Shown: positions 1-31,164, counted from the stretch's first letter. The stretch: 64,000 bases of DNA from a virus (IMGVR_UViG_3300030012_001430:6156-70155); one strand, 5' to 3'. Notes: generated from the sequence alone by a model not told the origin. Program-made: numbers and translations.

Positions 1-98
1 GCATTAAATACAGTTCTGATATCCTCCTGCCAATTCTCATCTTTTATTTCCAATCCTTCTATCGTTCCATTTTCATATTCTGTTTCATCTGTTTTCAT
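1..98 (-). CDS. 5' part of a gene running off the window (MKTDETEYENGTIEGLEIKDENWQEDIRTVFN...)
   Basis: ATG at 98 directly after the stop of 101..343; frame open to the window edge. Confidence 0.6.
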   Translation of the reverse strand, partial: MKTDETEYENGTIEGLEIKDENWQEDIRTVFN

Positions 99-100
99 TT

Positions 101-343
101 TTATATTCCTCCCATTTGTTCTACTCTCAGGTCTTGCTCGTTCTCAAACTCATGGTATGCTCTGTGTCCTGCTATGAACCCACCAGCATGTCTCTTTGTT
201 CCTAAGAACTCCTCACCACAAACAGGACAAACAACCTTCACAATCATTGCCTGTTTGTAGTATCCATCTGTTGATATTATTGTCAACATATGTCCTATGT
301 CGTCTTCGCTTATGTCGTCTATATTTGCATCTTCCTTTGTCAT
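101..343 (-). CDS. small zinc-finger protein
   Basis: CPVC...H-x3-H pattern; overlapping start/stop in the minus-strand operon. Confidence 0.7.
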   Translation of the reverse strand: MTKEDANIDDISEDDIGHMLTIISTDGYYKQAMIVKVVCPVCGEEFLGTKRHAGGFIAGHRAYHEFENEQDLRVEQMGGI

Positions 344-639
344 GCTTTCACCTTCATATAATGTCGAAGTGATTTGATTGGTCTCGGTGGAGACAATCGA
401 GGTTCTTCGACAACAACCTCTATTTTCTTCTTCAACTTCTCTGCTAGTTTGTCTTTCTCTTTTACACTAACACCATGCTTCTTGATGTAAGGTAGCAATG
501 TGTTTCTTCTGTACTCTTCCTTCCACATCACCTGTATGCAGTCATGGCACAATCTACCGTTCTTCGCCTGTTCCTCAGAAGGCTCTTGATACTCAGCACC
601 ACATAGGGTCTTGTCTAGGATTTGAAAATGTATAATCAC
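340..639 (-). CDS. hypothetical protein, possibly Zn-binding
   Basis: GTG at 639 overlaps the upstream stop; H...LCG...CHDC motif. Confidence 0.6.
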   Translation of the reverse strand: MIIHFQILDKTLCGAEYQEPSEEQAKNGRLCHDCIQVMWKEEYRRNTLLPYIKKHGVSVKEKDKLAEKLKKKIEVVVEEPRLSPPRPIKSLRHYMKVKA

Positions 640-815
640 TCTTCCTCCTCCTTTGGTGGTATCCAACTTTTATCAGTTAGAACTTTCAATCTTAGTTGGT
701 TTGTGGTAAGACCATACTTGAGTTGATTATGTATCCACTCACTTCTATTGGTTAGATTCTCCCACTTTTCCATGTCTTCTGCTCTTACATACACATTGAA
801 TCTCTTACCCCTCAT
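636..815 (-). CDS. small ribbon-helix-helix-like DNA-binding protein (59 aa, not in ORF track)
   Basis: MRGKRFNVYVRAEDMEKWENLTNRSEWIH...: beta strand then two helices; ATGA-type overlaps at both ends. Confidence 0.55.
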   Translation of the reverse strand: MRGKRFNVYVRAEDMEKWENLTNRSEWIHNQLKYGLTTNQLRLKVLTDKSWIPPKEEEE

Positions 816-1042
816 TCTTCCTTCTCCCTGTACGCTGGATGTGTCTTCGGCAACCTGTGCAGTCTTCTTACAATCATGTTGTTCACTAGATTGGATACTG
901 AGTCAGCACCATCTGCAAATCTCTTAGTTGCAACATCATCCCCTGAAGGACACATCCTCTCTTCTAATTCTGTTAAGTCTATTTTATCCATTATATATCT
1001 CAATACTTCATATTCAACGTGTATCTTTGAACTCGCTCTCAT
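812..1042 (-). CDS. hypothetical protein
   Basis: coupled start/stop with neighbours; upstream GGTGA. Confidence 0.65.
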   Translation of the reverse strand: MRASSKIHVEYEVLRYIMDKIDLTELEERMCPSGDDVATKRFADGADSVSNLVNNMIVRRLHRLPKTHPAYREKEE

Positions 1043-1206
1043 TTATCTTCACCTCTACATTTTTTACATGATAGATTCTGCATACATCTACCACAAATCA
1101 AAGTTGCTTCCTTAAGTGGAAGAGGTACTCCTGCACTACTCGCTTCACCTAGAAAGGTCTCAAGTGGATAGTGACAGGAACACTCTTCACAATCACATTC
1201 TTTCAT
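1039..1206 (-). CDS. Cys-rich zinc-binding microprotein (55 aa)
   Basis: MKECDCEECSCH...CGRC...CKKC; ATG at 1206 overlaps the ThiF stop. Confidence 0.6.
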   Translation of the reverse strand: MKECDCEECSCHYPLETFLGEASSAGVPLPLKEATLICGRCMQNLSCKKCRGEDK

Positions 1207-1805
1207 ATGTTCAACACCATCATGTCTTTGACATCGTTGTTGTCGTTGAACCACTTCTGTATCCATTGTGCTGCTGTTGCAGCAATTACAATATTCATGC
1301 AATCAATATCTCTAGCAGTGCCATCCCAAGATTGTGCCTGACATGAAAATGACCCTTCAGCACCTTCTCCAAGACTTTTCATCGAGGGGTCAGCGAGATA
1401 AGAAAGCAATAGGGCATTTCGACCCTGCGCCCGTAAATCTAGCCACTTCAACTTAGCATCTGCACCAAACCCCTGCTGATACAATAAACGCCTCACAGCA
1501 AGGTTATCTGCACAGCAAACCACCAAGTTGTAGCCCTGTAACTGCTTTGCTGTTAGAACCTTGAAAGGCTCATCGTTAACTGTGCCACGAAAGGATGTGT
1601 CCCATATCCTGTCTGCTAGAACACCTGCTTTGTTCTCTCCTATATCACTAACAGTGAAGTTCTGATATCCGATGTTCTTCCTCTCAACACCATCATCATC
1701 AAACACTGTTATTCTATATCCTAGTCTTTGGAGGAATTGTGTTAGGAAACTACCAATTCCACCTGCTCCAATTATCATTATTCTTCTATTCATCATTTTT
1801 ATCAC
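1203..1805 (-). CDS. ThiF/MoeB/E1-family adenylating enzyme
   Basis: IIGAGGIGS nucleotide-binding loop, DDDGVERKNIGYQ, GENKA and CADN motifs. Confidence 0.9.
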   Translation of the reverse strand: MIKMMNRRIMIIGAGGIGSFLTQFLQRLGYRITVFDDDGVERKNIGYQNFTVSDIGENKAGVLADRIWDTSFRGTVNDEPFKVLTAKQLQGYNLVVCCADNLAVRRLLYQQGFGADAKLKWLDLRAQGRNALLLSYLADPSMKSLGEGAEGSFSCQAQSWDGTARDIDCMNIVIAATAAQWIQKWFNDNNDVKDMMVLNI

Positions 1806-2028
1806 CTATATCTATTACATTGTTGTCTATCTGTTGTTGTTGATAGTGATGCCATGCATCTACTATCTCGTTTGTTATTCCATCCATTGTCGCACCGACA
1901 ACGCTGATTGCGTCTTCTAACACAGTTCTTCTGACAACGTTCTTCAACTGTGGTAGATTCTCATACTCTTCAATGAACTTACTGAAGTGGTATTGCATTC
2001 TCTTTAATGTCTCAATCAGTTCTTCCAT
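1786..2028 (-). CDS. hypothetical helical protein
   Basis: ATG at 2028 just after the TFIIB stop (MEELIETLK...). Confidence 0.6.
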   Translation of the reverse strand: MEELIETLKRMQYHFSKFIEEYENLPQLKNVVRRTVLEDAISVVGATMDGITNEIVDAWHHYQQQQIDNNVIDIGDKNDE

Positions 2029-2029
2029 C

Positions 2030-2932
2030 TTAATACGCTCCTGATGTGAAATCAGACACAGATAGGCTGTATAGGTCTTCTTTCGATAGACCAAACATAT
2101 TCTGCATCTCTCTCACCTGTTCTCTCAACCCCATTGCTGATGTTGTGTTACCCGAAGCCTTCACTAGACTTTCTTGAGTTACTCTGTATTTTCTCTGCAT
2201 TCTTCCTGCAACCCACAATCCAGCAACAACCTTGTTCGGTGAGAATCTCAAATGCTGCTCTTGATAGAAAGTCTCCAAGAACTGAATCATGCTCATCGCT
2301 TCCATTCGATATCCTGTGGGCATCTCATCCAACCTATCCAAGATGGATGATGCCATAGTCATCGCATTCTCCTGTGTGAAGACATACGACTTTCTGAAAT
2401 GCCTCGCTACTCTCTTACCCCAACGTGAGATATACTTCCTCTCAACCATCGAGTATCTACTATGCTCTCTTATGTTCATAGGCACTTTACTTTCCTTCAA
2501 TATGAAGAAGGTCAAGGCTGCTGCTCTATGTTCGACAGAAGCACCTCTGAACACATGCTCGTTATTGAGCGAACGAAGATACTCCTCTACCTTCTTCTTG
2601 ATAGAGGAACTAACTTGATAGTTAGATAGAATCATCTGAGACAAAACAATAGTTCTGTTATCTGCCTCAGATAATGCAGAGGCATACATGTTGTGCTTCT
2701 TCATCCTAACCATCTGATTGTGATTGTAGTTGGATTTGGTCTCCATGATTAGAGAACCCAACCTGTTTGTCGGTTCGTGTGTATGATTACCATCCTTTAG
2801 TATTGATGTGGTTTCCTCAAACGGTCTGATGACCTGAACCAAACCACAACTGTTGCATACGTTCTCACCCAATACATCATCGAAGAAACTATCATGTTCA
2901 CCACATTCGGGACAAGCCATGACTATCTCCAT
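2030..2932 (-). CDS. tfb: transcription initiation factor IIB (TFB) homolog
   Basis: N-terminal zinc ribbon CPEC...GENVCNSCGLV followed by two cyclin-like helical repeats; about 300 aa. Confidence 0.85.
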   Translation of the reverse strand: MEIVMACPECGEHDSFFDDVLGENVCNSCGLVQVIRPFEETTSILKDGNHTHEPTNRLGSLIMETKSNYNHNQMVRMKKHNMYASALSEADNRTIVLSQMILSNYQVSSSIKKKVEEYLRSLNNEHVFRGASVEHRAAALTFFILKESKVPMNIREHSRYSMVERKYISRWGKRVARHFRKSYVFTQENAMTMASSILDRLDEMPTGYRMEAMSMIQFLETFYQEQHLRFSPNKVVAGLWVAGRMQRKYRVTQESLVKASGNTTSAMGLREQVREMQNMFGLSKEDLYSLSVSDFTSGAY

Positions 2933-4161
2933 GTTATGTCCTCCGTAAACCTAGCAGCACTTAACTTTGCAACGGGTATTCTGAAGTTCGTTTTCTTAAC
3001 ATCAGATAGAGTCCTGACAGCCTTCACAGCCACAGTATCATTGAAGACAAGTGTTGCTCTCGTTGATATTTGGTCTCCAACCACATTCTTTCCATTGACA
3101 TCATCGACACAGAACGGTCCTTGAACATCAGTAAGAGAGTTGAAGAATACCAACTTACATCTCTGAGTTCCTGATTGGTTGTTATTAGGATAACACAACC
3201 AATCTCCTAACTGACCTTTGATATGCATAGCAAAATGGTACTTTTGTGATTTCCCTTCTAGTTTTAGATTGGAAAAAGGTGCTTTTCTCAAATCAACCAG
3301 TGTATATTGGGATTTCTTATCCATGTCTTGCAACAAGGTGAACGCTCTCTCTTCCACAATCCAATCAGTTCTGTTCTGCATCAACCATGCTTTCATCAAA
3401 CTCTCTTCAGATTCACTGGCATGAGTGCCAAACATATTGAACCACAGATTAGAAGGACTAATGTTAGCCCATTTCTTTGACCTGTTTGCCTTGTTCCTGT
3501 AACAATCAATGAATGTATTCGCTTCATCGATAGGTAGTGAACCCCAAATGTTCTTGGATATCTCAAATGCTACTTCATCCCTGCTGATTAGATTGGTGTT
3601 AATCTTAACATTGTATTGAGTGCCTTCAGAGAATAACCAATACGGCGACCTGTTCTGCAATGCATACAGTATGTTTGCTGAATAAGTAACGTTCCTATCG
3701 ATATATGCATCCATTGCCTCTGCACATCTAGTCATCGAACCATAGCCGATAATCTTAGCAAGAGCCATACAGACATCGACTTGATTCTTCTTTACACCAT
3801 TCATGAAGATGGTGCTACCAGTCTTTCTCAGTATGACTGAAGACTCACCATTTGGATATCGGAATGTTATCCATGTTCTCTCATCTGATTTGCTGTTAGG
3901 AGTAGTCCTAACGAATATATCATACATGTTCTTCGCAAATACATTCCAATAAGTGTTCTCATGGAACTTCTTCTTCGTTAAGTCTCTGCTAGTAAGTCTG
4001 ATGAATACTTCACCAAACCTGTTAGTTCCCCTGTTAGTGAGCAAGTGATGATACCTGTTCGTCTTACAAAGGAATGAACTGGTAGCGTTATCTCTTTCTC
4101 TATCGCTTCTTATTCTTGGTAGTTCCATTTTTATTTTCATTTTCATCACCATTTCTTTCAT
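2923..4161 (-). CDS. hypothetical 412 aa protein with a possible E2-like C-terminal domain
   Basis: long ORF in the operon; GPFCVDD resembles the UBC G-x-I-C-L-D motif (function speculative). Confidence 0.75.
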   Translation of the reverse strand: MKEMVMKMKIKMELPRIRSDRERDNATSSFLCKTNRYHHLLTNRGTNRFGEVFIRLTSRDLTKKKFHENTYWNVFAKNMYDIFVRTTPNSKSDERTWITFRYPNGESSVILRKTGSTIFMNGVKKNQVDVCMALAKIIGYGSMTRCAEAMDAYIDRNVTYSANILYALQNRSPYWLFSEGTQYNVKINTNLISRDEVAFEISKNIWGSLPIDEANTFIDCYRNKANRSKKWANISPSNLWFNMFGTHASESEESLMKAWLMQNRTDWIVEERAFTLLQDMDKKSQYTLVDLRKAPFSNLKLEGKSQKYHFAMHIKGQLGDWLCYPNNNQSGTQRCKLVFFNSLTDVQGPFCVDDVNGKNVVGDQISTRATLVFNDTVAVKAVRTLSDVKKTNFRIPVAKLSAARFTEDITWR

Positions 4162-4384
4162 AGTATAGTTTCTTATTATACAGGGTATCTAATTCTCCTG
4201 TCGATAAATCGGTGTAACCTAACCGAATGTAATATCTTATTCTGTTGAGAACTAGGGTTGATGGATATTTCCTTCCATCTTCCCTAGTCCTCTTGTATAG
4301 ATTAGATAGAGACTCCTTAGCACCAGCGTTTGTCATCCTATCGATGACCTCGCTTTCTATTGCTAGGACTTGTTCTCTATTCAT
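4100..4384 (-). CDS. hypothetical protein
   Basis: ATG overlaps the RNR stop. Confidence 0.55.
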   Translation of the reverse strand: MNREQVLAIESEVIDRMTNAGAKESLSNLYKRTREDGRKYPSTLVLNRIRYYIRLGYTDLSTGELDTLYNKKLYYERNGDENENKNGTTKNKKR

Positions 4385-6270
4385 ATCTCACAGACTCCAC
4401 CTGCACAAGCAAGTTCTCCTTGCAAGTCGGTGTTGTCCTCTAACTCAACAACTTCAGTCAAATCAATCTCAGTCAGAAGTTTGAGCATAGTTTCGTATTG
4501 CTTCTTGCTTATCGGTTCGTGTGGTGCTTGCTTGTAGACACCACCATCGAACGGTAGAACAGATAGACCATTGTAGAAGTCTCTGTTCTTCCACATCCAG
4601 TTTCTCACATCATCCCATTCATCCTCACGGATGTTGACAGTTGCAGAAACGTTGTGAGTGTTGACACCTCTGTTGTGTCCTGTTACAACCCAATCAACAG
4701 ATACTCTCTTCACTCTCTCCAACATCTCCAATGCTGATTCCTCTCTTGTTATTGAAGTTCCATCAGGAGTCTTCTGTGGTATTGAGATGATTGCCTGATT
4801 AGGATTGTGATAGTCATCCTCAACCAAGTCGGGGAACTTCGTTATCAGATAGTTGTAGATTGATTCCGTCTTCAACACTCTGATTCTCCTGATGTAGTAT
4901 TCAGACCACCAAGCGTGAATGCCTGATGATGTTCCCATAACTAGACTGGTTGTTCCAGCAGGTTTGACACAAGTGATTCTTGCTGCTGTGTTAATGCCCA
5001 ACGCATTAGCGAAGAACTCATTCGTGCTTCTTGCTTTGTTAGCAGCAGACTCCATATCTAAATCTAGAACTCTACCACTTGCTATTCCAGTCATTGATAC
5101 ACCGAGTAGTGCATCTTTCTCAGATGTCTTCTTCCATACTTCTCTGAGGTAATGGAAGTCAGTGTAGGATGCTTGCAGTGTTCCTAAGAACGTTGCATGT
5201 TCTACTCTCTTGTTAAGGTCAGACTGACTACTTACATCTGACACATTCACTTCTGTCAAGTTGCAGAACTGATATGGTCGAAGTGCTATCTCACAACAAG
5301 GGTTAGTTCCCCAATCCTTATCGTTGCTGAAATAGAATCCGGGTTCACCTGAACCTGAGTCTTGAACCCTCTTCCATAGATTGTTGAAGAAGTCCCTCTT
5401 GATTCTGTGTCGTAGTAGAACTACTGAGTTGTTTGCTCTTGCTCTCTGTGGGTTCTTCTCCCAAAAGTGTCCTGACTTCGATGTTATCATGTCATCGTCA
5501 TCAGCACTGAACAAACTGATTAGTGCTGCTCTGCGAATACCACCTGCTAACACTGCATCTGCGATGTAGCAAACGATATCGTGTGCTTCTAGTGTAGTTA
5601 GTTTGTCGCCGTTGTTCTTGTTAGCGAGAATACCCTCGACCTTCACTAGACATTCCTTCAGAGGTTGTGGGCCGGGTGCTTTTCCTCCACTGGTTTTCAG
5701 TGGGCTTCCCTTTGGCCTGACATCTGAATAGTCGAACCTGACTGTCGTTGCTCTCTTACCAATATAAGACTCAAACAGAACCTTGACTGCATCTGCCCAT
5801 CCTTCGATGGAATCAGCAACTAGATGTCTGTAAGTTCTCTTTGGATTAGGCAATCTAATCTCAGGCAACTGGTCTACATGATGTCTTTGCACCGAGTAGC
5901 CAACGCCTGTTCCTCCTAGTAATAGGAACATTGCCTCTGAAAACGACAGGTAATGGTCGATAGGCATGTATGCACAATTGTATACTCTGTTTGGTGAGAG
6001 TTCAATCGGCTTACCTGCAAACTGCATCGACCTCATCGAAGGTAGTATCTTCTTTGGGATAACATAGTTATCATAAGTGTCGTGAATCTTCTCGTAGATT
6101 GTTTGTTTTGTTTCTTCGGGTAGGTCTCTCTTTCTGATTGAGTCCAAATGCATCTGTCTGTTTCTCTGACAAATCTCTTCCCAAGTTTCCTTTCGCTGGT
6201 CTGCTTCTTTCCACTTTGCATACTTCATATGCACAGTGATATCTGATAGTATCTCTTGTTGTATTTCCAT
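4381..6270 (-). CDS. nrdJ: class II (adenosylcobalamin-dependent) ribonucleotide reductase
   Basis: YNCAY, GGIRRAALISL, TNPCCEI thiyl-radical motif, QFCNLTEVN, CVKPAGT, C-terminal CAGGVCEI. Confidence 0.95.
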   Translation of the reverse strand: MEIQQEILSDITVHMKYAKWKEADQRKETWEEICQRNRQMHLDSIRKRDLPEETKQTIYEKIHDTYDNYVIPKKILPSMRSMQFAGKPIELSPNRVYNCAYMPIDHYLSFSEAMFLLLGGTGVGYSVQRHHVDQLPEIRLPNPKRTYRHLVADSIEGWADAVKVLFESYIGKRATTVRFDYSDVRPKGSPLKTSGGKAPGPQPLKECLVKVEGILANKNNGDKLTTLEAHDIVCYIADAVLAGGIRRAALISLFSADDDDMITSKSGHFWEKNPQRARANNSVVLLRHRIKRDFFNNLWKRVQDSGSGEPGFYFSNDKDWGTNPCCEIALRPYQFCNLTEVNVSDVSSQSDLNKRVEHATFLGTLQASYTDFHYLREVWKKTSEKDALLGVSMTGIASGRVLDLDMESAANKARSTNEFFANALGINTAARITCVKPAGTTSLVMGTSSGIHAWWSEYYIRRIRVLKTESIYNYLITKFPDLVEDDYHNPNQAIISIPQKTPDGTSITREESALEMLERVKRVSVDWVVTGHNRGVNTHNVSATVNIREDEWDDVRNWMWKNRDFYNGLSVLPFDGGVYKQAPHEPISKKQYETMLKLLTEIDLTEVVELEDNTDLQGELACAGGVCEI

Positions 6271-6292
6271 AAATTCATCTCCTTATTGAGTT

Positions 6293-6318
6293 AAAAAAAG
6301 AAGGGCGTTGCACCCTTC
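6293..6318 (-). terminator. hairpin plus U-tract downstream of the Ubl gene
   Basis: minus strand GAAGGG-tgcaacg-CCCTTC-TTTTTTT. Confidence 0.65.
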
Positions 6319-6359
6319 CGGCAGTCAAACTACTACTGCTAAGACTATCTAAAACCGAT

Positions 6360-6566
6360 TTAACAGCCGCCTACGACTTGTTCCATCAGTTTAACTTCAT
6401 TGACTGAATCCCAGTCAACATCAGGTATTCTTTCCTCGCTGACCATTACATCGTCAACTACTACCCAATGTGTCGGATGGTCATTTATCTGCTCCATCAG
6501 ACCTGCTAGGTTCACTTCCATTTCCGTGTGTCCACTGTCATCTTGTATTATCAATTTCATTTTCAT
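6360..6566 (-). CDS. ubiquitin-like/ThiS-MoaD-SAMP beta-grasp protein ending VVGG-C
   Basis: 68 aa; N-terminal beta hairpin, helix, terminal strand EVKLMEQVVGG; upstream GGAGG. Confidence 0.7.
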   Translation of the reverse strand: MKMKLIIQDDSGHTEMEVNLAGLMEQINDHPTHWVVVDDVMVSEERIPDVDWDSVNEVKLMEQVVGGC

Positions 6567-6597
6567 TTTCCTCCATTTTGTTTTCTTTCGTTTTTAT

Positions 6598-6798
6598 TTA
6601 GTCGCCATTCAAAGCCCGGATTCTACCGGACAGAATAGCGATTGTCTTTTCATACTCCTTGGTGAGTGCAATGTGGTTGTTTGCCACCTGCATCACCTGT
6701 TGTAGTTGATTAGTGAGTTCTGCAATCCTTGCATCCTTCTCATCAACCACAGGCATTTCTTCTTCTTTCTTTTCTTTCTTTTCATTTTTCTTTGTCAT
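6598..6798 (-). CDS. small coiled-coil protein
   Basis: heptad-like IAELTNQLQQVMQVANNH; GGAGG upstream. Confidence 0.7.
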   Translation of the reverse strand: MTKKNEKKEKKEEEMPVVDEKDARIAELTNQLQQVMQVANNHIALTKEYEKTIAILSGRIRALNGD

Positions 6799-7955
6799 TT
6801 TATTACCTCCTTGTGTTCATCAATCAACTTAGAGACTTGCCCCTTTGTTAACTCCTCAGTATTACCTTCGTAGCCCAATGACCGCAGGTAATTCACCTGA
6901 CGTTCAGTTGGCTTATCATTGTAGCGACTGATTATGGTCTTCAACTTAGTAACTTGCCGTGGTGACAGGTCTCTTCGTCTGATTACTCGACTCTCCATGT
7001 CAGTCAAGAATCGCTTCTCCCACTGATTGATTCCCATTTCAGGATTAAACACTGGAATGTCAAAGTATTCACAGGCATCATGGAACTCATGCTCTTTCTT
7101 CTCACGAAGCACACTGTTCCTGATTGCTATCTGCTTTCGATATTCCTCGTTCTTCAACTGCTGAGTCTCGATAGCCTCATCCTCTGCTGCTACCGTAGCC
7201 CTGTGTCTATCAATCAACATGTGAAAGATGTCCATGTCAGTAATCAGTTTCTCATTGGGATAACCCCTAGTGTGAATCTGAGCCTTCGGATTATCAGGAT
7301 GATTCCATCGCCAAACGATAGAAGCCATCTCGTAGTCCATTGAACCCGGTCTTCCACTACCCTTCTTGCGTATCTTGGTCTCGTCTATCGTGACACCTAG
7401 AGATTGGTCATACACCTTCCTGCCTGACCTACGAACATTGACTCTCAAATCCAACTCCTTGATTTCGTTGAACGTTCTCTCAAAGTCCTCTCCATTGTGT
7501 CTCCACCAAGCATCCTTGATTAGTGCTGAGACTCTGACATCAATCCATTCCTGAATCATGTCTTCTGTAATTGCTTCAGGGTTGATACCTGTCTCTTCTA
7601 CGATTGCTCTCAGAATCATGTAGGAGTTAATGTGGTCTGAACCAACACACTCTCTAACATCAGTCTCAGTGTTGTGTATCTCGAAATGATATACGATGTG
7701 ATGCTCACACAGGCACTTGTTCGGGTGATTCTCTGCCCATGCAGGTCTTGGCGTTCCAATCCCTTGCCACCAAACTTCTCCTGTTGCAATCCACTCATGC
7801 TTCGCATCATCGTAGTTGTCAGCAACTGAAAGAGCAGTCATGTTCTCTCTCAGTTTCTTATCCCATCTACCATTTCCTAATTCTCTCTTTGCTGTAACGT
7901 AGTCTTGTTTTTCCATTGTTAATTCTATTGCTTCTCTTGGTATATCCATTTTCAT
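6795..7955 (-). CDS. hypothetical protein with Zn-binding motif and C-terminal helical modules
   Basis: CLCEHHI...CVGSDHI; C-terminal PTERQVNYLRSLG...LTKGQVSKLID. Confidence 0.8.
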   Translation of the reverse strand: MKMDIPREAIELTMEKQDYVTAKRELGNGRWDKKLRENMTALSVADNYDDAKHEWIATGEVWWQGIGTPRPAWAENHPNKCLCEHHIVYHFEIHNTETDVRECVGSDHINSYMILRAIVEETGINPEAITEDMIQEWIDVRVSALIKDAWWRHNGEDFERTFNEIKELDLRVNVRRSGRKVYDQSLGVTIDETKIRKKGSGRPGSMDYEMASIVWRWNHPDNPKAQIHTRGYPNEKLITDMDIFHMLIDRHRATVAAEDEAIETQQLKNEEYRKQIAIRNSVLREKKEHEFHDACEYFDIPVFNPEMGINQWEKRFLTDMESRVIRRRDLSPRQVTKLKTIISRYNDKPTERQVNYLRSLGYEGNTEELTKGQVSKLIDEHKEVIK

Positions 7956-8063
7956 TCACCTACATACTCTTTCATGGAACATGCTTTGCAGTAAACACCT
8001 CTTCCAGTGTAGGACTTCCATAATACTCCCATCCTCCTGCATTTTGCACATCTTCCAATCTCT

Positions 8064-8309
8064 TTACTCATGTTCATCAGTTCTATCCATTAATTCATAA
8101 CCTCTCTGTTCTACTAAGAAAGCAGAGAGTAGTTCGTTTATCTTGCCGAATAATGCTTCAGCACTTCCACCAATAGTCTTACGGTGTAGAGATAACCAAA
8201 TCCTATGTTCTGCATTCAGCACAACCTTCGGGAAATCATTCTCATCCATCGTTATGATTATCGGTGGCATTGTTGGGTCATTCACTAGTCTAAATTCTAC
8301 TATATCCAT
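8064..8309 (-). CDS. hypothetical protein
   Basis: upstream GGTGA; protein-like composition. Confidence 0.65.
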   Translation of the reverse strand: MDIVEFRLVNDPTMPPIIITMDENDFPKVVLNAEHRIWLSLHRKTIGGSAEALFGKINELLSAFLVEQRGYELMDRTDEHE

Positions 8310-8491
8310 CGTTCATCACCACTCATAGCCTTGTCTTTCAGTCTCTTCTAGCATTCGCAGAGACTTATCATGACCAGCCCTCAAATACACTCTTCGCCAG
8401 TGTGCGGGGTCTTTCATGATGTCCGGCTTCTTGCCGAACACTGCGTCTTTCACATCTTTCATTTTTATTTTTATTATTTCCATTACTTCTT

Positions 8492-8794
8492 TCATTTCTT
8501 ATACCTCCCATTGAATTCGTCTTTGGGAATCAACGCTTGAAACAAACCACCAATTGACTTGGCGATTGTCATCAAGATTCTTTCTACTTTCTTCTTCTTC
8601 AATATCTCTTCGTAGATACGTTCCTTTCTCAGAAGAAAGTTGATGCTTGGCGTTCCTGCCAAGTCTATGATACTCTCATATGTTTCACCATAATACATCC
8701 TAGTAACATCGAGAGTACAATTAGTCAAATCGTTATACTCATCTTCAAGGGCTTTCCGCCCCCATATTTTCATTATTATATTCATATTGTTCAC
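8492..8794 (-). CDS. hypothetical protein
   Basis: ORF in the minus-strand operon; start uncertain. Confidence 0.5.
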   Translation of the reverse strand: MNNMNIIMKIWGRKALEDEYNDLTNCTLDVTRMYYGETYESIIDLAGTPSINFLLRKERIYEEILKKKKVERILMTIAKSIGGLFQALIPKDEFNGRYKK

Positions 8795-9035
8795 CTTTGT
8801 TCTTATGCTTGAATCTCTTAATCATATCATTCAAGTTGTTCTTAGTTGTAGCAGTCATGAACTTCTGACCACCACGAAGGAATATCAGGATACTGAAGAA
8901 CTTCTCAATGTGTTCATGTTCTCTGTTCCTGAATCTGTCCATCAATGGGTCATCCTCATCCAACGGTCTCCAAGTGAATGCTTGCATCTCCTCGACAGAG
9001 ACAATACCATTGGTAAATCGGATATATCCTTTCAT
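8745..9035 (-). CDS. hypothetical protein
   Basis: ATG overlaps the upstream stop. Confidence 0.6.
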   Translation of the reverse strand: MKGYIRFTNGIVSVEEMQAFTWRPLDEDDPLMDRFRNREHEHIEKFFSILIFLRGGQKFMTATTKNNLNDMIKRFKHKNKGEQYEYNNENMGAESP

Positions 9036-9184
9036 TCTTCTTCAATTCCGTGTAATGCTAACCACTCACTGTAAGTCGGTTCGCACTGACACAGACAAGG
9101 GACAGGTTCTTTCTCCCCATCTGCGGTTTGTAAAACTGCCGTTCCAGTTCCATCACAAACACTGCAATCTTCCTTTCCTCTCAT
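9032..9184 (-). CDS. DnaJ-type zinc-finger microprotein (50 aa, not in ORF track)
   Basis: MRGKEDCSVCDGTG...VPCLCQC; GGTG immediately upstream of the start. Confidence 0.65.
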   Translation of the reverse strand: MRGKEDCSVCDGTGTAVLQTADGEKEPVPCLCQCEPTYSEWLALHGIEEE

Positions 9185-9198
9185 CACCTTAATTATTC

Positions 9199-9777
9199 TC
9201 ATATTAATCCCAACCTCGTTAGCAAGGCATTTGCCTCTTGTTCATGTTCAAAGGACTTGTTTAGGTAGTGGTCTCTCGGCCACCACTCCGGTTCTTCTCT
9301 CTTAGTCCAAGCAGCGAATCGCCACTTGTCATCGAGATAGTATTGACGATACTTCTCGATTGTCGTCATCTCATCAAATCCATCTGCTTTCCTACACTCC
9401 ATGTGAGGAGAGATAGCAATAGCGAATGGCGTAAGTCCAACATCAGGAAGAAGACTCTCTGCTTCATCCATCTGTTCTGAATACCTGTTCATCTGAACTT
9501 CGACTTGATGAATGCGACCATACCTGTGAGTATACTCCCTGCATAGTGCATAGGTATGCTCACGCAACCACTGGAAGTTCTGTCTTGTCTCTCTCGCCCA
9601 AATAGTAGATGGGTGATTCAACATCACAGGCTTCCAACCTGCTTCCAAACCAAGATGGTCTAGAATAGTAAACAGCATCTGCAAACTCTCAGTTGGCATC
9701 TTGACTACATGCTTGTCCAGCATCATCTTTGCACTCGTTGTTGGGCTTTCGTCTAAAGTAAATATATTCATTTTCAT
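9199..9777 (-). CDS. pyrimidine-dimer DNA glycosylase/T4 endonuclease V-like family protein
   Basis: MNIFTLD...DKHVVKMPTESLQML...NHPSTIW...NFQWL...EYTHRYGRIH signature. Confidence 0.8.
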   Translation of the reverse strand: MKMNIFTLDESPTTSAKMMLDKHVVKMPTESLQMLFTILDHLGLEAGWKPVMLNHPSTIWARETRQNFQWLREHTYALCREYTHRYGRIHQVEVQMNRYSEQMDEAESLLPDVGLTPFAIAISPHMECRKADGFDEMTTIEKYRQYYLDDKWRFAAWTKREEPEWWPRDHYLNKSFEHEQEANALLTRLGLI

Positions 9778-9790
9778 TTCCTCCTATTGT

Positions 9791-10209
9791 TAATCGAATG
9801 TGAAACAGAGAAAGACAGAGACCGCCACAGCCTCTACTACAATGCCAAGCACGTTTGTCTTTTTTATCTCGTAGTAAAACTCTGCTCACAGTTGCAGTAT
9901 ATCAGAAATACCAATTACGCACACGGCTGCAATGGAACGGGAAGATAAAGCCGATTTGCCGTGTTCTCCCGTCTGATATTGTGAGTGTGATATCGGATAA
10001 ATGCATGGAGGAGATGATTCCATCACTGCTTTAGATTTGCATTTTTTACCGCAGTAAACCGATGTTTGATTGTGAGAGGGGGGAAGAAGGTCTGTTCTGT
10101 GCCATTACCTACGGGTAGGGAACTGCATTGTGGTAGAACACATTGCCAATGTTGTTTATGTAACCGAATTAACCTGCTGTTATTTTTATACCGGACAGCC
10201 ATTCGATTG
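9791..10209 (-). ncRNA. candidate large structured RNA (about 420 nt)
   Basis: closing pair AATCGAATG 9792-9800 / CATTCGATT 10200-10208; many internal stems and crossing pairings; no credible ORF. Confidence 0.5.
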
Positions 10210-24929: not shown

Positions 24930-25685
24930 TTGAATTGGTTTCACATACTCAAACTAGGAGGAGAGGATTTAGGCGTACCTCCTGAGAAGGATGCGGAGTC
25001 CTATGACGATGCGATAAGAGAAAAGAAAGATTTCTTCCACAACTTGAGAAATGTCGCTACTACTAGACCACATTTTGAATACTCAGCAAAAAAGAAATTT
25101 CAAGGAAATAAAATAGAAGGAAACCTGAAAGGAATTGCACAGGCGATAGGAAATAAAGGGGCAGTTGGAAGATTACACATAGCATTCTCAGACCCATTCA
25201 ATTCAGATTATGTCGTATCGTTTAGAAGGCTTAAACCTGAAGACACCTATACTTCATCTATGCGTCCCTCAAAGTTCAATAGACCTGCAAAACCAAAAGA
25301 CTTGGGAAACACTGATTCAGTGATATTGTTTGATAGTGTTTATTCTACAAGCGATGTCGCTAGACTGAAGAGAGTATTCTCATCACCATTTCAAGCACTA
25401 CTGCCGATTTGGGGAGAGGATGACAAAAGGAGACTCCGTGAGGTCATGGCAGAAAAAAGCCAAACCAATGTAGCAGACGCACTCGAAGAGAGTAGAAAAC
25501 TAAACAGGGAACTAGAGAGTCTTTACAAGAAGAACAAGAACAGAAAAATTACCCCTCAACAAAAAGAGAAGAACTTTGACCGCATTGATGAGATAAAAAA
25601 TCGGTTGCAAAGGCTACGCAGACTTACACAGAGAGGTAAAGGCAGAAGAGACCGACCCACAAACATATTTGGAGGCTCGACATGA
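24930..25685 (+). CDS. hypothetical protein (MNWFHILK...)
   Basis: shared tag; basic coiled-coil tail. Confidence 0.7.
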   Translation: MNWFHILKLGGEDLGVPPEKDAESYDDAIREKKDFFHNLRNVATTRPHFEYSAKKKFQGNKIEGNLKGIAQAIGNKGAVGRLHIAFSDPFNSDYVVSFRRLKPEDTYTSSMRPSKFNRPAKPKDLGNTDSVILFDSVYSTSDVARLKRVFSSPFQALLPIWGEDDKRRLREVMAEKSQTNVADALEESRKLNRELESLYKKNKNRKITPQQKEKNFDRIDEIKNRLQRLRRLTQRGKGRRDRPTNIFGGST

Positions 25686-27118
25686 CTGACATGGAAAATC
25701 TAGATTTCATGTCTTCTATGGACATGGAGTTGTCTAAGACATCCTTTCCATATTTCTTCAAGAATGTACTAGGAATGATGTATCCCGAATACATGAAAGA
25801 GTGGCTAGAGTCTATGGAGAGGACAGACAGGACAGTTATTGTTTGTAGCAGAGACCACGGAAAGTCAGTCTTCATGCATTGTTGGGTTGTATGGAATCTA
25901 ATTTTCCAAGAGCCTCCCTTTCAGATGCTATACATATCATCGAACCAAAAGCAGACACTTGTTCACATGAGGGAAATTGATAGATACTTCAACCATCCAG
26001 CGTTGAAACAATTCAAGCCTAGTCGTGGATGGGCAATTGGGAATATTCAACTTACCAACGGCAATGCGATTCTAGAGCGTTCCGTTGGTTCTCAGATTCG
26101 TGGTCTTCACCCACAGGAGATTATCATTGACGACCCCTTGAAAGAGTTCAGTCTCGCTGGTATTCAGAGAGTAACAGATTGGTTCTTCGGTGACATGATT
26201 CCGACTCTGCATCATACTTCCAAACTCAGGATGATTGGAACGCCGTTTACCTACACTGATATCTTCGCACAATTGGAAGAGAATGAAGCATACACTGTGA
26301 CAAAGTATCCATGTCTCGATGCATTGAACGAACCTCTTTGGCCTGAGCGTTGGGACTATGACGCACTAATGCAAAGAAAGGCTGAGATAGGTTCTCTGAA
26401 GTTTACAAGAGAGTATCTGTGTGTTCCTATCTCCACAGGAACTGCTCTATTCAATCCTGAGTTCATAGAGAAGTGCAAGAACAAGGAGTATGTTCTGAAA
26501 CTTGGAAATAGAAAGGATAAGGGATACAAATACTATGTTGGTGTTGACCCTGCTATCTCGACTGATGGAGACTACAATGTTATCACAGTCCTAGAGGTAG
26601 ATGAGAATAAGAACAAGGCAATCGTCCATGTTGATAGAGCGAAGAACATAGAGTTCAGGGAGAACATCGAGAAGATACGATTGATTGGCAAGGTGTTTGA
26701 GCCGGAGGAGATTCTGTTTGAGACCAACACATTTGCAAAGGCATTTACACAGGAACTGAAGAACATGACAGATTTGAATGTCAGAGACTTCAACACAACG
26801 AGAAAGAAGAAACAGGAGATAATTCTAAATCTTCAAATGAATATTGAGAATCAGAAGATAATCATGCCCTATGGTGACAATGCAAGTAGGAGACTCACTG
26901 GTGCATTAATTGAGGAGTTATCCATGTTCTCGATAACAGCATCAGGGAAGTTTGAGGGAGTTGGCGCACATGACGATTTGGTTATGAGTTTGGCACTTGC
27001 CAATGCTGCTTCACAAGGAACGGGAGGACAGTTTGTTTTACTTGATGACTTGGACATCTTTGATGAACCTACTACTACTCGGCGTAGTGTATCCGGTGTC
27101 ATGGGTATCAACTTTTGA
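25682..27118 (+). CDS. terL: terminase large subunit
   Basis: SRDHGKS Walker A, IIIDD Walker B, IGTP motif III, VGVDPA nuclease motif, HDDLVMSLALA. Confidence 0.95.
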   Translation: MTDMENLDFMSSMDMELSKTSFPYFFKNVLGMMYPEYMKEWLESMERTDRTVIVCSRDHGKSVFMHCWVVWNLIFQEPPFQMLYISSNQKQTLVHMREIDRYFNHPALKQFKPSRGWAIGNIQLTNGNAILERSVGSQIRGLHPQEIIIDDPLKEFSLAGIQRVTDWFFGDMIPTLHHTSKLRMIGTPFTYTDIFAQLEENEAYTVTKYPCLDALNEPLWPERWDYDALMQRKAEIGSLKFTREYLCVPISTGTALFNPEFIEKCKNKEYVLKLGNRKDKGYKYYVGVDPAISTDGDYNVITVLEVDENKNKAIVHVDRAKNIEFRENIEKIRLIGKVFEPEEILFETNTFAKAFTQELKNMTDLNVRDFNTTRKKKQEIILNLQMNIENQKIIMPYGDNASRRLTGALIEELSMFSITASGKFEGVGAHDDLVMSLALANAASQGTGGQFVLLDDLDIFDEPTTTRRSVSGVMGINF

Positions 27119-30098: not shown

Positions 30099-30199
30099 GC
30101 GAACTCCTTGACATTGTTAAGAAGTGGAAAGAAGAAACAGAAAAGCGTAATGCAGAGACAGATGAAAGAATTAGGAAGTATTTGGAGGGCAAGAAATGA
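30095..30199 (+). CDS. 34 aa microprotein
   Basis: TTG overlaps the portal stop and its TGA overlaps the next ATG. Confidence 0.45.
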   Translation: MSELLDIVKKWKEETEKRNAETDERIRKYLEGKK

Positions 30200-31164
30200 C
30201 TCTTTGGTTTGAGGAATTGAAGAAAGAGAAAGACGCTTGCTACCGCAAGGTCAGAAGCAGATACAAGAAGTGGCCTTCTGCCTATGCTTCAGGTGCATTA
30301 GTACAATGCAGAAAAGTAGGTGCTGCTAATTGGGGTAACTCAGTTAAGAAAGCAGAATCGAAATACACACCTGAGAACCTATCAGATGAAAAGAGAAGAC
30401 TGTTCGAGTCAGAACCCTCTTTCGATGTAGATTTTCCTGACTATGAGCATCCTGAGAATGAGAAAGAACTTCCAAAGGTTCTAGCCATAATGAAGAAAAA
30501 AGAAATTGACGAGGATGAGATAGAAGACCTAGACCAAAACAACAACGAGATGATGTTGAAGATTGTTGGTGAGAGTAAAGAGGATAGAGAAGATTTGATT
30601 GAGGATATTGATATTCACACAATCAAACTCAAGGTGAAATATGGAAGACCAAGACCTTACGAGATATCCGATAAGATAGAATCTACAACAGATACGGATG
30701 ATAGTCCATCTTTTCCAAGTGGTCATGCGATAGAAGCATACGCCTTAGCCAAGATTCTAGGTAAGGAGTATCCCGACAAGCAAGAGGAGTTGGATAAGAT
30801 GGCTGCTAAGATATCATTGTCTAGAGTTCAGATGGGCAACCATTACCCAAGTGACATCGAAGTAGGAAAGAAGGCTGGCACACTAATTGGTGAGACATAT
30901 CTAGATGGTGACATGAAGAAATCATGGGAAGAGATGCTAGTCAAGGATTGGGTTAGTTGTGCATCATGTGAAGATGACAAACCCGGAACAGAGCCTTGTG
31001 GAAGAAAGGATGCATCCAAGGGAACAAAGAGAAGATGCAGACCAACCTGCTCTGCTTGTGAAGATTACAAGAGAAGAGGCGGGAAACCGAAGAAAAGAAA
31101 GGCAGGTACGTTTAGCAGAGAAGAAGACAAGGGACTTCGTGGTTGGTTTGAAAGGAGGGGTTAG
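30196..31164 (+). CDS. PAP2/vanadium-haloperoxidase-family phosphatase domain flanked by basic Cys-rich modules
   Basis: K-x6-RP (KVKYGRPRP), PSGH and SR-x5-H-x3-D (SRVQMGNHYPSD) all present. Confidence 0.85.
   Translation: MTLWFEELKKEKDACYRKVRSRYKKWPSAYASGALVQCRKVGAANWGNSVKKAESKYTPENLSDEKRRLFESEPSFDVDFPDYEHPENEKELPKVLAIMKKKEIDEDEIEDLDQNNNEMMLKIVGESKEDREDLIEDIDIHTIKLKVKYGRPRPYEISDKIESTTDTDDSPSFPSGHAIEAYALAKILGKEYPDKQEELDKMAAKISLSRVQMGNHYPSDIEVGKKAGTLIGETYLDGDMKKSWEEMLVKDWVSCASCEDDKPGTEPCGRKDASKGTKRRCRPTCSACEDYKRRGGKPKKRKAGTFSREEDKGLRGWFERRG

What the first reader, a model, noticed from the sequence alone, without database searches (positions are those of the whole stretch)
1039..6566. Putative virus-encoded ubiquitin-like conjugation system interleaved with RNR and TFB
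Seen: one minus-strand gene run contains a 68 aa beta-grasp-sized protein ending VVGG-C (6360-6566), a stand-alone ThiF/E1 enzyme (1203-1805), a 412 aa protein with an E2-like Cys motif, and a Cys-rich microprotein translationally coupled to the E1. No thiamine, molybdopterin or tRNA-thiolation genes are visible in the window. Known: E1/ThiF enzymes adenylate the C-terminal GG of Ubls, as in archaeal SAMP/UbaA and bacterial E1-E2-Ubl-JAB systems. Inference: the virus carries its own protein-tagging cascade, possibly to modify host or viral proteins or to counter host defence.
Basis: partly seen in the sequence, partly recalled or inferred. Interest (0 to 1): 0.88.

Follow-up and report, generated by a model that had tools for sequence, protein, structure and literature searches.

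The report
Viral ubiquitin-like tagging gene set
This ocean virus of archaea, like its many relatives, carries a small ubiquitin-shaped protein, the enzyme that would activate it, a protease that would trim or remove it and a probable carrier enzyme, so it probably tags proteins on its own, which nobody has tested.

Summary
The 68 aa ORF (6360-6566) folds as a beta-grasp. Its Gly-Gly is kept in all 51 viral homologues found, followed by 0-3 variable residues. The 200 aa ORF is a compact ThiF/E1 with one invariant cysteine (SCQ). The C-terminal domain of the 412 aa protein matches the E2/UEV/RWD fold at low Z and has a cysteine invariant in 65 of 65 sequences.

The same gene set sits together in three unrelated contexts (a Bacteroidales contig, a TFIIB-bearing contig, Methanoperedens). 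Natural fusions exist: poly-Ubl, Ubl-E1, and Ubl joined to the Cys domain.

The Cys-rich microprotein is coupled to the E1 (ATGA) but occurs only in close relatives. Conjugation itself is inferred, not shown; a sulfur-carrier role is the main rival.

Papers I could search note only a "MoeB/ThiF" auxiliary gene in such viruses. This scan had already flagged the same module on other viral genomes.

The parts
6360..6566 (-). Ubl: 68 aa beta-grasp protein ending Gly-Gly-Cys. It would be the modifier precursor.
1203..1805 (-). Compact ThiF/E1-like adenylating enzyme. It is 200 aa from the GTG; the likelier start is the ATG near 1796.
   Evidence: Pfam ThiF E 1.3e-17, above the cut-off. Invariant across distant relatives: GAGGIGS, D36, D38, K59, D100, R125 and S154-C155-Q156. 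Nearest solved relatives are the Cap2 E1 domain, MoeB, MccB and Uba1.
2923..4161 (-). 412 aa protein. The N-terminal ~260 aa have no recognised fold. The C-terminal domain (aa 265-396, window 2974-3369) is UBC/UEV/RWD-like, with invariant Cys351 (codon 3109-3111). It is the candidate E2.
1..98 (-). First 32 codons of a 189 aa JAB/MPN+ (JAMM) metalloprotease. The gene runs off the window's left edge (own record G000:C1:5684-6253).
   Evidence: locate it. E65, H107-x-H109, S117 and D120 are invariant in 15 sequences. A profile search of the PDB finds only JAMM deubiquitinases down to E 0.98 (AMSH-LP 9e-5, STAMBP, Sst2, archaeal Rpn11-like 6fjv 1.6e-3). Pfam Prok-JAB scores only 16.9 bits against a cut-off of 25. 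Present in 72 of 72 viral loci with at least 2.3 kb downstream of the E1.
101..343 (-). 80 aa zinc-finger-like protein (CPxC...H...H), always encoded between the E1 and the JAB. Possible accessory part; role unknown.
   Evidence: Found in 27 of 29 loci. It ends in an invariant GG plus one residue. The GG codons are nearly always GGA GGA, lying 5-10 nt before the next gene's start, so this GG is probably a ribosome-binding site and not a modifier end. Its relatives are viral hypothetical proteins only.
1039..1206 (-). 55 aa Cys-rich microprotein, translationally coupled to the E1 through an ATGA overlap. It is an accessory and not a core part.
   Evidence: ATGA overlap read directly. Homologues only in L001-L009, the closest relatives, 9 of 29 loci. 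No family match in Pfam or NCBIfam.
4381..6270 (-). Class II (B12-type) ribonucleotide reductase, lying between the Ubl and the E2-like gene. Neighbour; not shown to belong to the system.
   Evidence: phrog_367 E 1.6e-131. Pfam RNR barrel and RNR-II insertion domain. An RNR also lies upstream of the cassette in L034.
2030..2932 (-). TFB/TFIIB homologue between the E2-like gene and the E1. Neighbour; it marks an archaeal-type host.
   Evidence: Profile A7 against the PDB: TFIIB E 5.3e-18, Pyrococcus TFB core E 1.1e-13. Present in 59 of 61 loci.

Best explanation
The virus encodes a self-contained ubiquitin-like system of four parts. Steps 1-4 are inferred; what is shown is the presence, conservation and linkage of the parts.

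1. The 68 aa beta-grasp protein is made as a precursor with 0-3 residues after Gly-Gly (here one Cys). The JAMM protease removes that tail.
2. The compact ThiF-type E1 adenylates the exposed C-terminal glycine with ATP.
3. The acyl group is passed as a thioester, possibly through the E1's invariant Cys155, to the invariant Cys351 of the UBC-like C-terminal domain of the 412 aa protein. The large, unrecognised N-terminal part of that protein would choose targets, since no E3 is seen.
4. The Ubl ends on lysines of host or viral proteins during infection. The JAMM protease can also take it off again.
For: Fold and conserved end of the Ubl
- Beta-grasp model.
- GG plus 0-3 variable residues in 51 of 51 viral homologues, with synonymous GG codons.
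- Among 134 library representatives, 121 Ubl domains reach the profile's end: 112 end in GG, 7 in AG, 1 in FG and 1 in neither.
- Eleven representatives are head-to-tail poly-Ubls in which each repeat ends in GG followed by a short linker. That form requires cleavage after GG.

E1
- Pfam ThiF above the cut-off. ATP-loop, Asp and Lys positions and one Cys (SCQ) are invariant even in relatives of 28-34% identity.

JAMM protease
- All four motif elements are invariant, and only JAMM deubiquitinases are hit in the PDB.

E2-like protein

Linkage beyond synteny
- L034 (Bacteroidales contig) has, in order, Cys-domain protein, Ubl75 ending GGN, Prok-JAB (30.2 bits, above the cut-off) and E1.
- L036 has, in order, Cys-motif protein, Ubl71 ending GG, E1 and a JAB homologue.
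- The Methanoperedens loci have a Cys-domain protein and an E1.
- Fusions: Ubl-E1 (P0087, E 3.3e-27) and Ubl-Ubl-E1 (P0066, E 5.9e-24; hhalign 99.3%). Ubl fused to a domain with the Cys motif: P0083 and P0095, A6-profile E 4.5e-5 and 2.2e-4 in a search of 134 sequences.

Counts within the virus family
- JAB 72 of 72; E2-like 61 of 61.
- Ubl 44 of 50 within 6 kb. Of the 6 misses, 5 of 5 testable have it just outside the flank and one could not be tested.

E1-Ubl complex prediction
- Weak support: ipSAE 0.32 (runs 0.47, 0.30, 0.32), best control 0.00.
- That mark was reached by 58 of 80 solved complexes and 2 of 110 mismatched pairs. At 0.60 or under it was reached by only 7 of the 80, and by both mismatches that passed.
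- The runs agree in at least 87% of contacts and the partner's pLDDT is at least 80.
- E1-Ubl complexes are solved, so the pass may reflect likeness alone.

Other
- No sulfur-acceptor enzyme among the 90 ORF products scanned.
Against: - No biochemical step is shown.
- hhalign of the viral-only profile to the Ubl-fused Cys domains is weak (E 0.027 and 0.28). To P0064 it gives E 0.0042 at 8% probability.
- The E1 is a single ~200 aa domain. It has no separate Cys domain or UFD, and the Arg of the usual N-x-x-R-Q stretch is Tyr, Phe or His.
- The Ubl's best structural matches by Z are the sulfur carriers MoaD and ThiS.
- The window's JAB is below Pfam's cut-off.
- Inside the virus family the whole module is syntenic, so co-occurrence there is weak evidence taken alone.
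- Targets and purpose are unknown.
Confidence: 0.6

Rival explanations
1. Sulfur-carrier system. The E1 adenylates the Ubl, which is then converted to a thiocarboxylate, as with ThiS, MoaD, TtuB, CysO or the dual-use archaeal SAMPs. It would donate sulfur to a cofactor, a thionucleoside or a metabolite that the virus needs. The JAB only matures the carrier, as in the QbsD/QbsE or Mec/CysO pairs (those examples are recalled, not from a call).
For: The top VIA rows for the Ubl are MoaD, MOCS2A and ThiS. The E1 is a single ThiF-like domain without a Cys domain. Published annotation calls it moeB (passage in PMC8276007; supplement file 3 of PMC10160649). Iyer et al. 2006 describe ThiS/MoaD-JAB-E1 clusters tied to sulfur assimilation (passages of PMC1779556).
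Against: No rhodanese, cysteine desulfurase, PP-loop thiolase, ThiG, MoaE or CysM-like hit among the 90 ORF products or beside the cassette in L033-L036. A conserved UBC-like Cys domain travels with the set and is even fused to the Ubl. Poly-Ubl precursors are typical of modifiers. Many ORFs have no family at all, so an unrecognised acceptor enzyme is not excluded.
Confidence: 0.15
2. Tagging machinery used as counter-defence. The chemistry is the same as in the best explanation, but the purpose is to neutralise a host Ubl-based or other immune system. The virus would modify a host defence protein or flood the host's conjugation or deconjugation enzymes with a decoy Ubl and a viral deubiquitinase.
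For: Bacterial BilABCD and CBASS Cap2/Cap3 show that Ubl-type conjugation is used in virus-host conflict (passages of 10.1101/2023.09.26.559546). The cassette is confined to viruses and other mobile elements in what I saw. It lies in the early/replication module and not among the virion genes.
Against: No host system was examined here. No PADLOC model other than the E1 domain matches. Nothing points to a particular target.
Confidence: 0.12
3. Ubl plus JAB as a morphogenesis aid, like lambda tail-assembly proteins I and K. The Ubl domain would be a cleavable chaperone and the E1 would be unrelated.
For: Phage TAPI (Ubl with a C-terminal Gly) and TAPK (JAB) form such a pair (passages of PMC1779556).
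Against: The genes lie on the opposite strand from the structural module, among RNR, TFB and ligase genes. The E1 is fused to the Ubl in P0066 and P0087. The Ubl is free-standing and is not fused to a tail protein.
Confidence: 0.04
4. The E1 performs another C-terminal adenylation chemistry on the small protein, with no transfer to proteins. Examples would be MccB-like or PaaA-like peptide modification, or cyclisation.
For: MccB is among the solved relatives (E 1.5e-8 with the profile). A Cys-rich peptide gene is coupled to the E1 in this window.
Against: The Cys-rich peptide is absent from most relatives. The substrate candidate is a folded beta-grasp with GG and not a short peptide ending in Asn. 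The JAB and the UBC-like domain have no role in such pathways.
Confidence: 0.05

Closest known systems
Bacterial BilABCD systems, Types I and II (Ubl BilA, E2 BilB/CEHH, JAB deubiquitinase BilC, E1 BilD). Passages of bioRxiv 10.1101/2023.09.26.559546 read.
   Same: The same four kinds of protein. The Ubl has a conserved C-terminal Gly followed by extra residues that the JAB enzyme removes. There is no E3. The E2 is divergent, with a catalytic Cys after strand b4. The L034 gene order (E2-like, Ubl, JAB, E1) is close to Bil's Ubl-E2-DUB-E1.
   Different: BilD is a multidomain E1 (inactive and active adenylation domains plus a mobile Cys domain; catalytic C417). The viral E1 is one ~200 aa domain. 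PADLOC gives only a weak BilD hit (E 8.9e-5) and nothing for BilA, BilB or BilC. The viral E2-like domain sits at the end of a 412-720 aa protein and has no CEHH motif. Bil is a cellular defence system, whereas this set is carried by viruses. In the window the genes are spread over about 6.5 kb among RNR and TFB genes and do not form a tight operon.
PRTRC cassette (ParB-related, ThiF-related; NCBIfam TIGR03736 'PRTRC system ThiF family protein'). What the cassette contains is recalled or taken from earlier scan notes, not from a call.
   Same: TIGR03736 is the best NCBIfam match of the E1 in all four contexts: 59.0, 39.7, 56.1 and 45.5 bits.
   Different: All scores are far below the model's cut-off of 144.75 bits. 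No NCBIfam model matched the Ubl, the JAB or the 412 aa protein. This is a cousin lineage and not a member.
Archaeal sampylation (SAMP1-3, E1 UbaA, desampylase HvJAMM1)
   Same: A beta-grasp protein with C-terminal GG, a single-domain ThiF-type E1 and a JAMM protease. An archaeal setting. The JAB of L034 gives its only NCBIfam hit to the haloarchaeal desampylase model (E 3.7e-7, 30.1 bits).
   Different: Sampylation has no E2, while this set carries a UBC-like Cys domain. The UbaA model scores only 38.1 bits against a cut-off of 450. SAMPs end at GG without a tail (recalled).
Caldiarchaeum subterraneum Ub/E1/E2/small RING/Rpn11 operon (PMC3082918 and PMC5654768; seen in search listings and abstracts only)
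   Same: An archaeal-lineage cascade with a Ubl, E1, E2 and JAMM enzyme. The archaeal Rpn11-like chain 6fjv is among the few PDB hits of the viral JAB profile (E 1.6e-3).
   Different: That system is closely eukaryote-like in sequence and has a RING E3. Here the Ubl, E1 and E2-like parts are too divergent for any curated model, and no RING was recognised.
ThiF/MoeB 'auxiliary metabolic gene' of archaeal viruses, and E1-like genes of Asgard and Methanoperedens elements (PMC8276007 passage; 10.1101/2021.07.29.454249 passages; PMC13444090 passages; PMC10160649 supplement file 3)
   Same: These papers record ThiF-family genes in archaeal viruses or extrachromosomal elements and speculate on a link to ubiquitin-like modification.
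   Different: In the passages I read, the E1 is treated alone and assumed to use host Ubls or ThiS proteins. No virus-encoded Ubl, JAB or E2-like partner is described.

Membership tests
ThiF/E1 adenylating enzymes (Pfam PF00899) | Score above Pfam's gathering cut-off | tested here: met
   64.2 bits against 28.1, E 1.3e-17. The own-record search gave 63.3 bits.
ThiF/E1 adenylating enzymes (Pfam PF00899) | Gly-rich nucleotide loop, ribose-binding Asp, conserved Lys, and the Asp of the D-N stretch that holds Mg | tested here: met
   G13-A-G-G-I-G-S19, D36, K59 and D100 are invariant in A5 and A8. Their equivalence to MoeB residues is read from the HMMER alignments and from recall.
ThiF/E1 adenylating enzymes (Pfam PF00899) | Arg in the N-x-x-R-Q stretch after the ribose-binding Asp | tested here: not met
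   Position 47 is Tyr, Phe or His in all 8 sequences of A8 and Tyr in all 15 of A5. Gln48 is kept. The effect on catalysis is unknown.
PRTRC-system ThiF (NCBIfam TIGR03736) | Score above the model's curated cut-off | tested here: not met
   Best NCBIfam hit, but 59.0 bits against 144.75.
SAMP-activating E1 UbaA (NCBIfam NF047750) | Score above the curated cut-off | tested here: not met
   38.1 bits against 450.
Ubiquitin-like beta-grasp modifiers and carriers | Beta-grasp fold | tested here: met
   Model pLDDT 84.9 with strands and helices in the order b-b-a-b-b-a-b. The structural neighbours are ubiquitin, SUMO, ISG15, MoaD and ThiS, all at modest scores: Foldseek E at or above 0.012, VIA Z at or below 5.6. 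No sequence model matches.
Ubiquitin-like beta-grasp modifiers and carriers | Conserved C-terminal Gly-Gly at the end of the fold | tested here: met
   51 of 51 viral homologues. 112 of the 121 complete domains among 134 representatives end in GG, and 8 more keep the last Gly. The GG codons vary synonymously.
Ubiquitin-like beta-grasp modifiers and carriers | Activated by a cognate E1 (physical pairing) | tested here: inconclusive
   The complex prediction gave weak support only: 0.32 against a best control of 0.00. Natural Ubl-E1 fusions P0066 and P0087 argue for pairing.
JAB/MPN+ (JAMM) metalloproteases | E ... H-x-H-x7-S-x2-D metal and catalytic motif | tested here: met
   E65, H107, H109, S117 and D120 are invariant in 15 sequences. 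The motif spelling is recalled. The alignment to AMSH-LP (WIHTHP...AF.S..D) is.
JAB/MPN+ (JAMM) metalloproteases | Score above the cut-off of Pfam Prok-JAB (PF14464) | tested here: not met
   16.9 bits against 25 for the window's protein. The JAB of the L034 cassette scores 30.2 bits. The family profile hits only JAMM enzymes in the PDB down to E 0.98.
E2 / UBC-fold conjugating enzymes | UBC fold (helix, four-stranded sheet, then helices) | tested here: inconclusive
E2 / UBC-fold conjugating enzymes | Invariant Cys in the loop after the last sheet strand | tested here: met
   Cys351 directly follows strand 346-350 and precedes helix 361-373. It is invariant in 65 of 65 and in the distant homologues of A6. 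Superposition on a catalytic Cys was not checked.
E2 / UBC-fold conjugating enzymes | H-P-N motif upstream of the Cys; match to the UQ_con or Prok-E2 models | tested here: not met
   No invariant His, Pro or Asn lies between G316 and C351. No Pfam, NCBIfam or PADLOC E2 model matched.
BilABCD | Multidomain E1 (BilD) with a mobile Cys domain; BilA, BilB and BilC models | tested here: not met
   The E1 is a single 200 aa domain. The PADLOC BilD hit is E 8.9e-5 over 107 residues, and there are no hits for the other three parts.

The most novel reading that the evidence does not exclude
A large, abundant family of marine archaeal tailed viruses runs its own complete ubiquitin-like conjugation cycle. 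At least 193 IMG/VR contigs encode this E1. Related cassettes sit in bacteriophage-like contigs and in Methanoperedens elements. Viruses would then be a major reservoir and vehicle of Ubl-conjugation machinery, using it to rewire host or viral proteins during infection.
Probability: 0.5. Interest if true: 0.88.

Novelty: new variant of a known kind. Interest (0 to 1): 0.8.

Why it matters
Ubiquitin-type tagging by prokaryotic viruses is essentially unexplored. Known bacterial Ubl cascades (Bil, CBASS Cap2/Cap3) are host weapons against phages, and papers on archaeal viruses list only a lone "MoeB/ThiF" metabolic gene.

If these abundant ocean viruses tag proteins themselves, three things follow:
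- A widely reported "auxiliary metabolic gene" is mis-read.
- A new E2-like family and the smallest E1 of a conjugation system become available for biochemistry.
- The history of ubiquitin-like signalling gains a viral branch, one that spans archaeal viruses, bacteriophage-like contigs and archaeal extrachromosomal elements.

The four small genes can be expressed in E. coli, so the idea can be tested directly.

Tried and rejected
- tblastn of the E1 and of the 412 aa protein against 50,697 GenBank phage records found nothing. The E1 of L034 gave only a weak partial hit in crAss-like phage cr106_1. No cultured phage with this cassette was found.
- Foldseek of the 412 aa model against the PDB gave no match. 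BFVD gave three unnamed viral proteins only.
- hhalign of the viral-only p412 profile to L033's 718 aa protein (E 0.0056, 6.5% probability), to L036's 654 aa protein (E 0.043) and to P0064, P0083 and P0095 was weak. The link to these rests on the shared motif in A6 and on the A6-profile scores.
- I first read p80's C-terminal GG as a possible second modifier. I set that reading aside because the GG is nearly always GGAGGA just before the next start codon, and most genes of this module end in purine-rich, ATGA-coupled tails.
- The Atlas look-up of p80 returned only viral hypothetical clusters.
- The host was not established. The one genome-contig scan returned no Poseidoniales or other marine archaeal chromosome. 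The terminase's nearest GenBank relatives are Bacteroides phages at 28% identity. I take the TFB as the indication of an archaeal host. Whether this record is a magrovirus was not tested.
- RNA: contigs of two runs of one marine metatranscriptome sample lie on parts of the stretch. They include 6366-6542 (Ubl, no differences), 1312-1548 (E1), 3504-3861 (412 aa gene) and 4732-4992 (RNR). These are contigs of one sample and DNA carry-over is possible, so I do not count this as proof of transcription.
- L114's record is not held, so its Ubl could not be looked for.
They may list a ThiF or JAB annotation for magroviruses.
- Literature searches that found no description of a virus-encoded Ubl/E1/JAB/E2 set in these viruses. 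The main texts of PMC5434244, PMC10160649 and PMC11706807 hold none of ThiF, ubiquitin, MoeB or JAB.

Full report
**What the window is.** It is part of a 70,155-base viral record, estimated 72% complete; the window covers record bases 6156-70155. The plus strand from about 10 kb onward carries terminase, portal, prohead protease, major capsid and tail tube genes. The first 10 kb are transcribed the other way and hold a tight run of genes, most joined by ATGA overlaps. The 300 aa "TFB" is real. Pfam sees only a sub-threshold zinc ribbon, but a profile of 13 homologues matches human TFIIB over its whole length (E 5.3e-18) and the Pyrococcus TFB core (E 1.1e-13). A tailed virus with its own TFB points to an archaeal host. 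I did not establish the host further.

**The observation.** The 200 aa protein is a ThiF-family enzyme above Pfam's cut-off. The Cys-rich ORF most likely starts at the ATG at 1206, which overlaps the E1 stop codon as ATGA. It has homologues only in the nine closest of 29 related loci, so it is an accessory and not a core part.

**The small protein is a Ubl with a functional Gly-Gly.**
- With an alignment of 21 homologues, AlphaFold2 gives a confident model (pLDDT 84.9) with the beta-grasp order of strands and helices.
- Foldseek finds no match at E<=0.001. Its best rows are almost all SUMO, ubiquitin and ISG15 (E 0.012-0.044).
- In 51 of 51 viral homologues the protein ends in GG followed by 0-3 residues of no fixed identity: none, C, Y, F, V, L, NQ, RF, IR, SL, AY, GNQ and others.
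- The two Gly codons vary synonymously and no gene starts nearby, so selection acts on the protein.
- A profile search of 1.84 billion representatives found 134 relatives. Of 121 domains that reach the profile's end, 112 end in GG, seven in AG, one in FG and one in neither.
- Eleven relatives are head-to-tail repeats of two or three Ubls, each ending in GG followed by a short linker. This is the polyubiquitin arrangement, and it needs a protease that cuts after GG.

**The protease exists.** A search of the window's own record with Prok-JAB pointed to a 189 aa ORF. Its first 32 codons are window bases 98-3 and the rest lies beyond the left edge. Pfam's score is below threshold (16.9 against 25 bits). 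Even so, the upstream Glu, H-x-H, Ser and Asp of the JAMM motif are invariant in 15 diverse homologues. The family profile hits nothing in the PDB except JAMM deubiquitinases down to E 0.98: AMSH-LP 9e-5, STAMBP, Sst2 and an archaeal Rpn11-like protein at 1.6e-3. Four of the 51 viral Ubls already end at GG. L029, whose Ubl ends at GG, still has the JAB, so the JAB may also remove the Ubl from targets; that is inference.

**The E1.** It is compact (191-205 aa in relatives). It keeps the nucleotide loop, the ribose-binding Asp, the Lys and the Asp of the D-N stretch. It also keeps one cysteine in an S-C-Q triplet that stays invariant down to 28% identity. The Arg usual in the N-x-x-R-Q stretch is Tyr, Phe or His. 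Its nearest curated family is the PRTRC-system ThiF, far below cut-off (59 against 144.75 bits). Its nearest solved relatives are the Cap2 E1 domain, MoeB, MccB and Uba1.

**Linkage beyond synteny.** Within the virus family (193 IMG/VR contigs encode the E1; the best 80 were examined) the parts always travel together:
- JAB in 72 of 72 loci that reach far enough.
- The E2-like protein in 61 of 61.
- The Ubl in 44 of 50 within 6 kb. Five of the six misses have it just outside the flank and one was untestable.

Because the whole module is syntenic, that alone proves little. Two further lines are stronger.

The first is a scan of one genome per prokaryotic species, which found the E1 family in unrelated settings:
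- A Bacteroidales contig has, in a row, a 723 aa protein, a 75 aa Ubl ending GGN, a Prok-JAB above Pfam's cut-off and the E1. The C-terminus of the 723 aa protein aligns with the Cys domain (hhalign E 7e-5).
- A contig with a TFIIB-like gene has a 654 aa protein with the same motif, a 71 aa Ubl ending GG, the E1 and a JAB homologue.
- Two Methanoperedens loci have a 712-718 aa Cys-domain protein and the E1.

The motif C-I-x-D...D...D...T-L is shared by all eight sequences aligned. Forty-three long homologues in the protein database are all unnamed and have no Pfam domain.

The second line is natural fusions. P0087 is Ubl-E1 and P0066 is Ubl-Ubl-E1 (E 3.3e-27 and 5.9e-24; hhalign 99.3%). P0083 and P0095 are Ubls fused to a domain with the Cys motif (A6-profile E 4.5e-5 and 2.2e-4 among 134 sequences). 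For the last two, hhalign with the viral-only profile is weak.

**Mechanism.** What is shown: the parts exist, are conserved at the residues that matter, and are linked by neighbourhood and by fusion. What is inferred: trimming after GG by the JAMM enzyme, adenylation by the E1, thioester transfer to Cys351, and attachment to lysines of unknown targets. The E1-Ubl complex prediction gave weak support only: ipSAE 0.32 against 0.00 for the best control. At scores this low the tool's calibration warns that passes are more often wrong than right unless the pairing was likely beforehand. Solved E1-Ubl complexes may also explain the pass.

The main rival is a sulfur-carrier role. The Ubl's nearest folds include MoaD and ThiS, and the E1 is ThiF-sized. 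Against that rival stand the UBC-like Cys domain, the poly-Ubl forms, and the absence of any recognisable sulfur-transfer or acceptor enzyme among 90 ORF products.

**Comparison with what is known.**
- The make-up matches the Ubl/E2/JAB/E1 operons of bacteria first listed by Iyer, Burroughs and Aravind (passages of PMC1779556). It also matches BilABCD, where the JAB enzyme pre-processes a Ubl that carries extra residues after its Gly (passages of 10.1101/2023.09.26.559546).
- It fails the membership tests for Bil, PRTRC and UbaA.
- Papers on archaeal viruses that I could search mention only the E1: as a prevalent "MoeB (ThiF family)" auxiliary gene (passage of PMC8276007), as a moeB column in a magrovirus table (supplement file 3 of PMC10160649), and as E1-like genes thought to use host Ubls in Asgard viruses and Methanoperedens elements (passages).
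- Three magrovirus/Poseidoniales-virus papers do not contain ThiF, ubiquitin, MoeB or JAB in their main texts.

**Earlier notes of this scan.** The same module has been described before on other viral genomes: e1-6048462, e1-6100715, e1-5985187 and e1-6073254. My conclusions rest on my own calls, and they agree with those notes. The PRTRC lead from e1-3811588 and e1-5787455 was tested and gives a best but sub-threshold hit.

**Verdict.** The finding is real. It is a new variant of a known kind of system, carried by an abundant group of ocean viruses, and it is readily testable at the bench.

Noticed in passing
window 101-343 (-): An 80 aa CPxC...H...H protein always lies between the E1 and the JAB, and in some relatives is directly coupled to the E1 stop. 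It ends in an invariant GG plus one residue. The GG is nearly always GGAGGA just ahead of the next start codon, so it is probably a ribosome-binding site. A role as a small zinc-binding adaptor of the Ubl system is open.
   Followed up: partly
window 1-10000 (-) and own record 640-6253 (-): Most genes of this module end in purine-rich codons plus GAATGA or a similar sequence, which gives acidic C-termini (GEEE, KEEEE, GEDE). Each overlaps the next start as ATGA. This is a long chain of translationally coupled genes with Shine-Dalgarno-like GGAG/GAGG stretches inside the coding ends.
   Followed up: partly
window 34824-37388 (+) and L032:1368-2915 (-): There are two ATP-dependent DNA ligase genes in one viral genome: an 854 aa form inside the structural block and a 515 aa three-domain form in the early module.
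   Followed up: no
L032:2869-3114 (-); window 40450-40962 (+); window 31165-31452 (+): Small proteins with eukaryote- or archaea-flavoured domains: a PC4-like hit (E 3.9e-4, below cut-off), a SAP domain (E 2.3e-9) and DUF5754 (E 4.2e-7).
   Followed up: no
window 25682-27118 (+): The large terminase's nearest GenBank phage relatives are ~178 kb Bacteroides phages (DAC16 and kin; 28% identity, E 7e-38). One of the distant Ubl cassettes also sits on a Bacteroidales contig. This may be a link between these archaeal viruses and a group of large bacteriophages.
   Followed up: no
L033:4994-9174 and L035:5767-9077: In Methanoperedens the E1 is followed by a 166 aa Lys/Pro-rich protein ending KGKGG. 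A LAGLIDADG homing endonuclease gene sits between the Cys-domain protein and the E1 in L033. One database homologue is labelled as plasmid-borne.
   Followed up: partly
L034:440-4699: Just upstream of the Bacteroidales Ubl cassette lies a 1419 aa ribonucleotide reductase with two intein/LAGLIDADG insertions. This echoes the RNR that lies inside the viral module.
   Followed up: no
L126 (MT774378.1 47136-48347): crAss-like phage cr106_1 has a 403 aa hypothetical protein with a weak ThiF-like stretch (35% over 82 residues, E 1e-4). It lies directly after a protein annotated as containing a metalloprotease domain.
   Followed up: no
window 9199-9777 (-) and 30196-31164 (+): A pyrimidine-dimer DNA glycosylase (E 3.4e-8) lies at the end of the early module. 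A PAP2-family phosphatase (E 1.5e-12) lies between the portal and the capsid genes.
   Followed up: no
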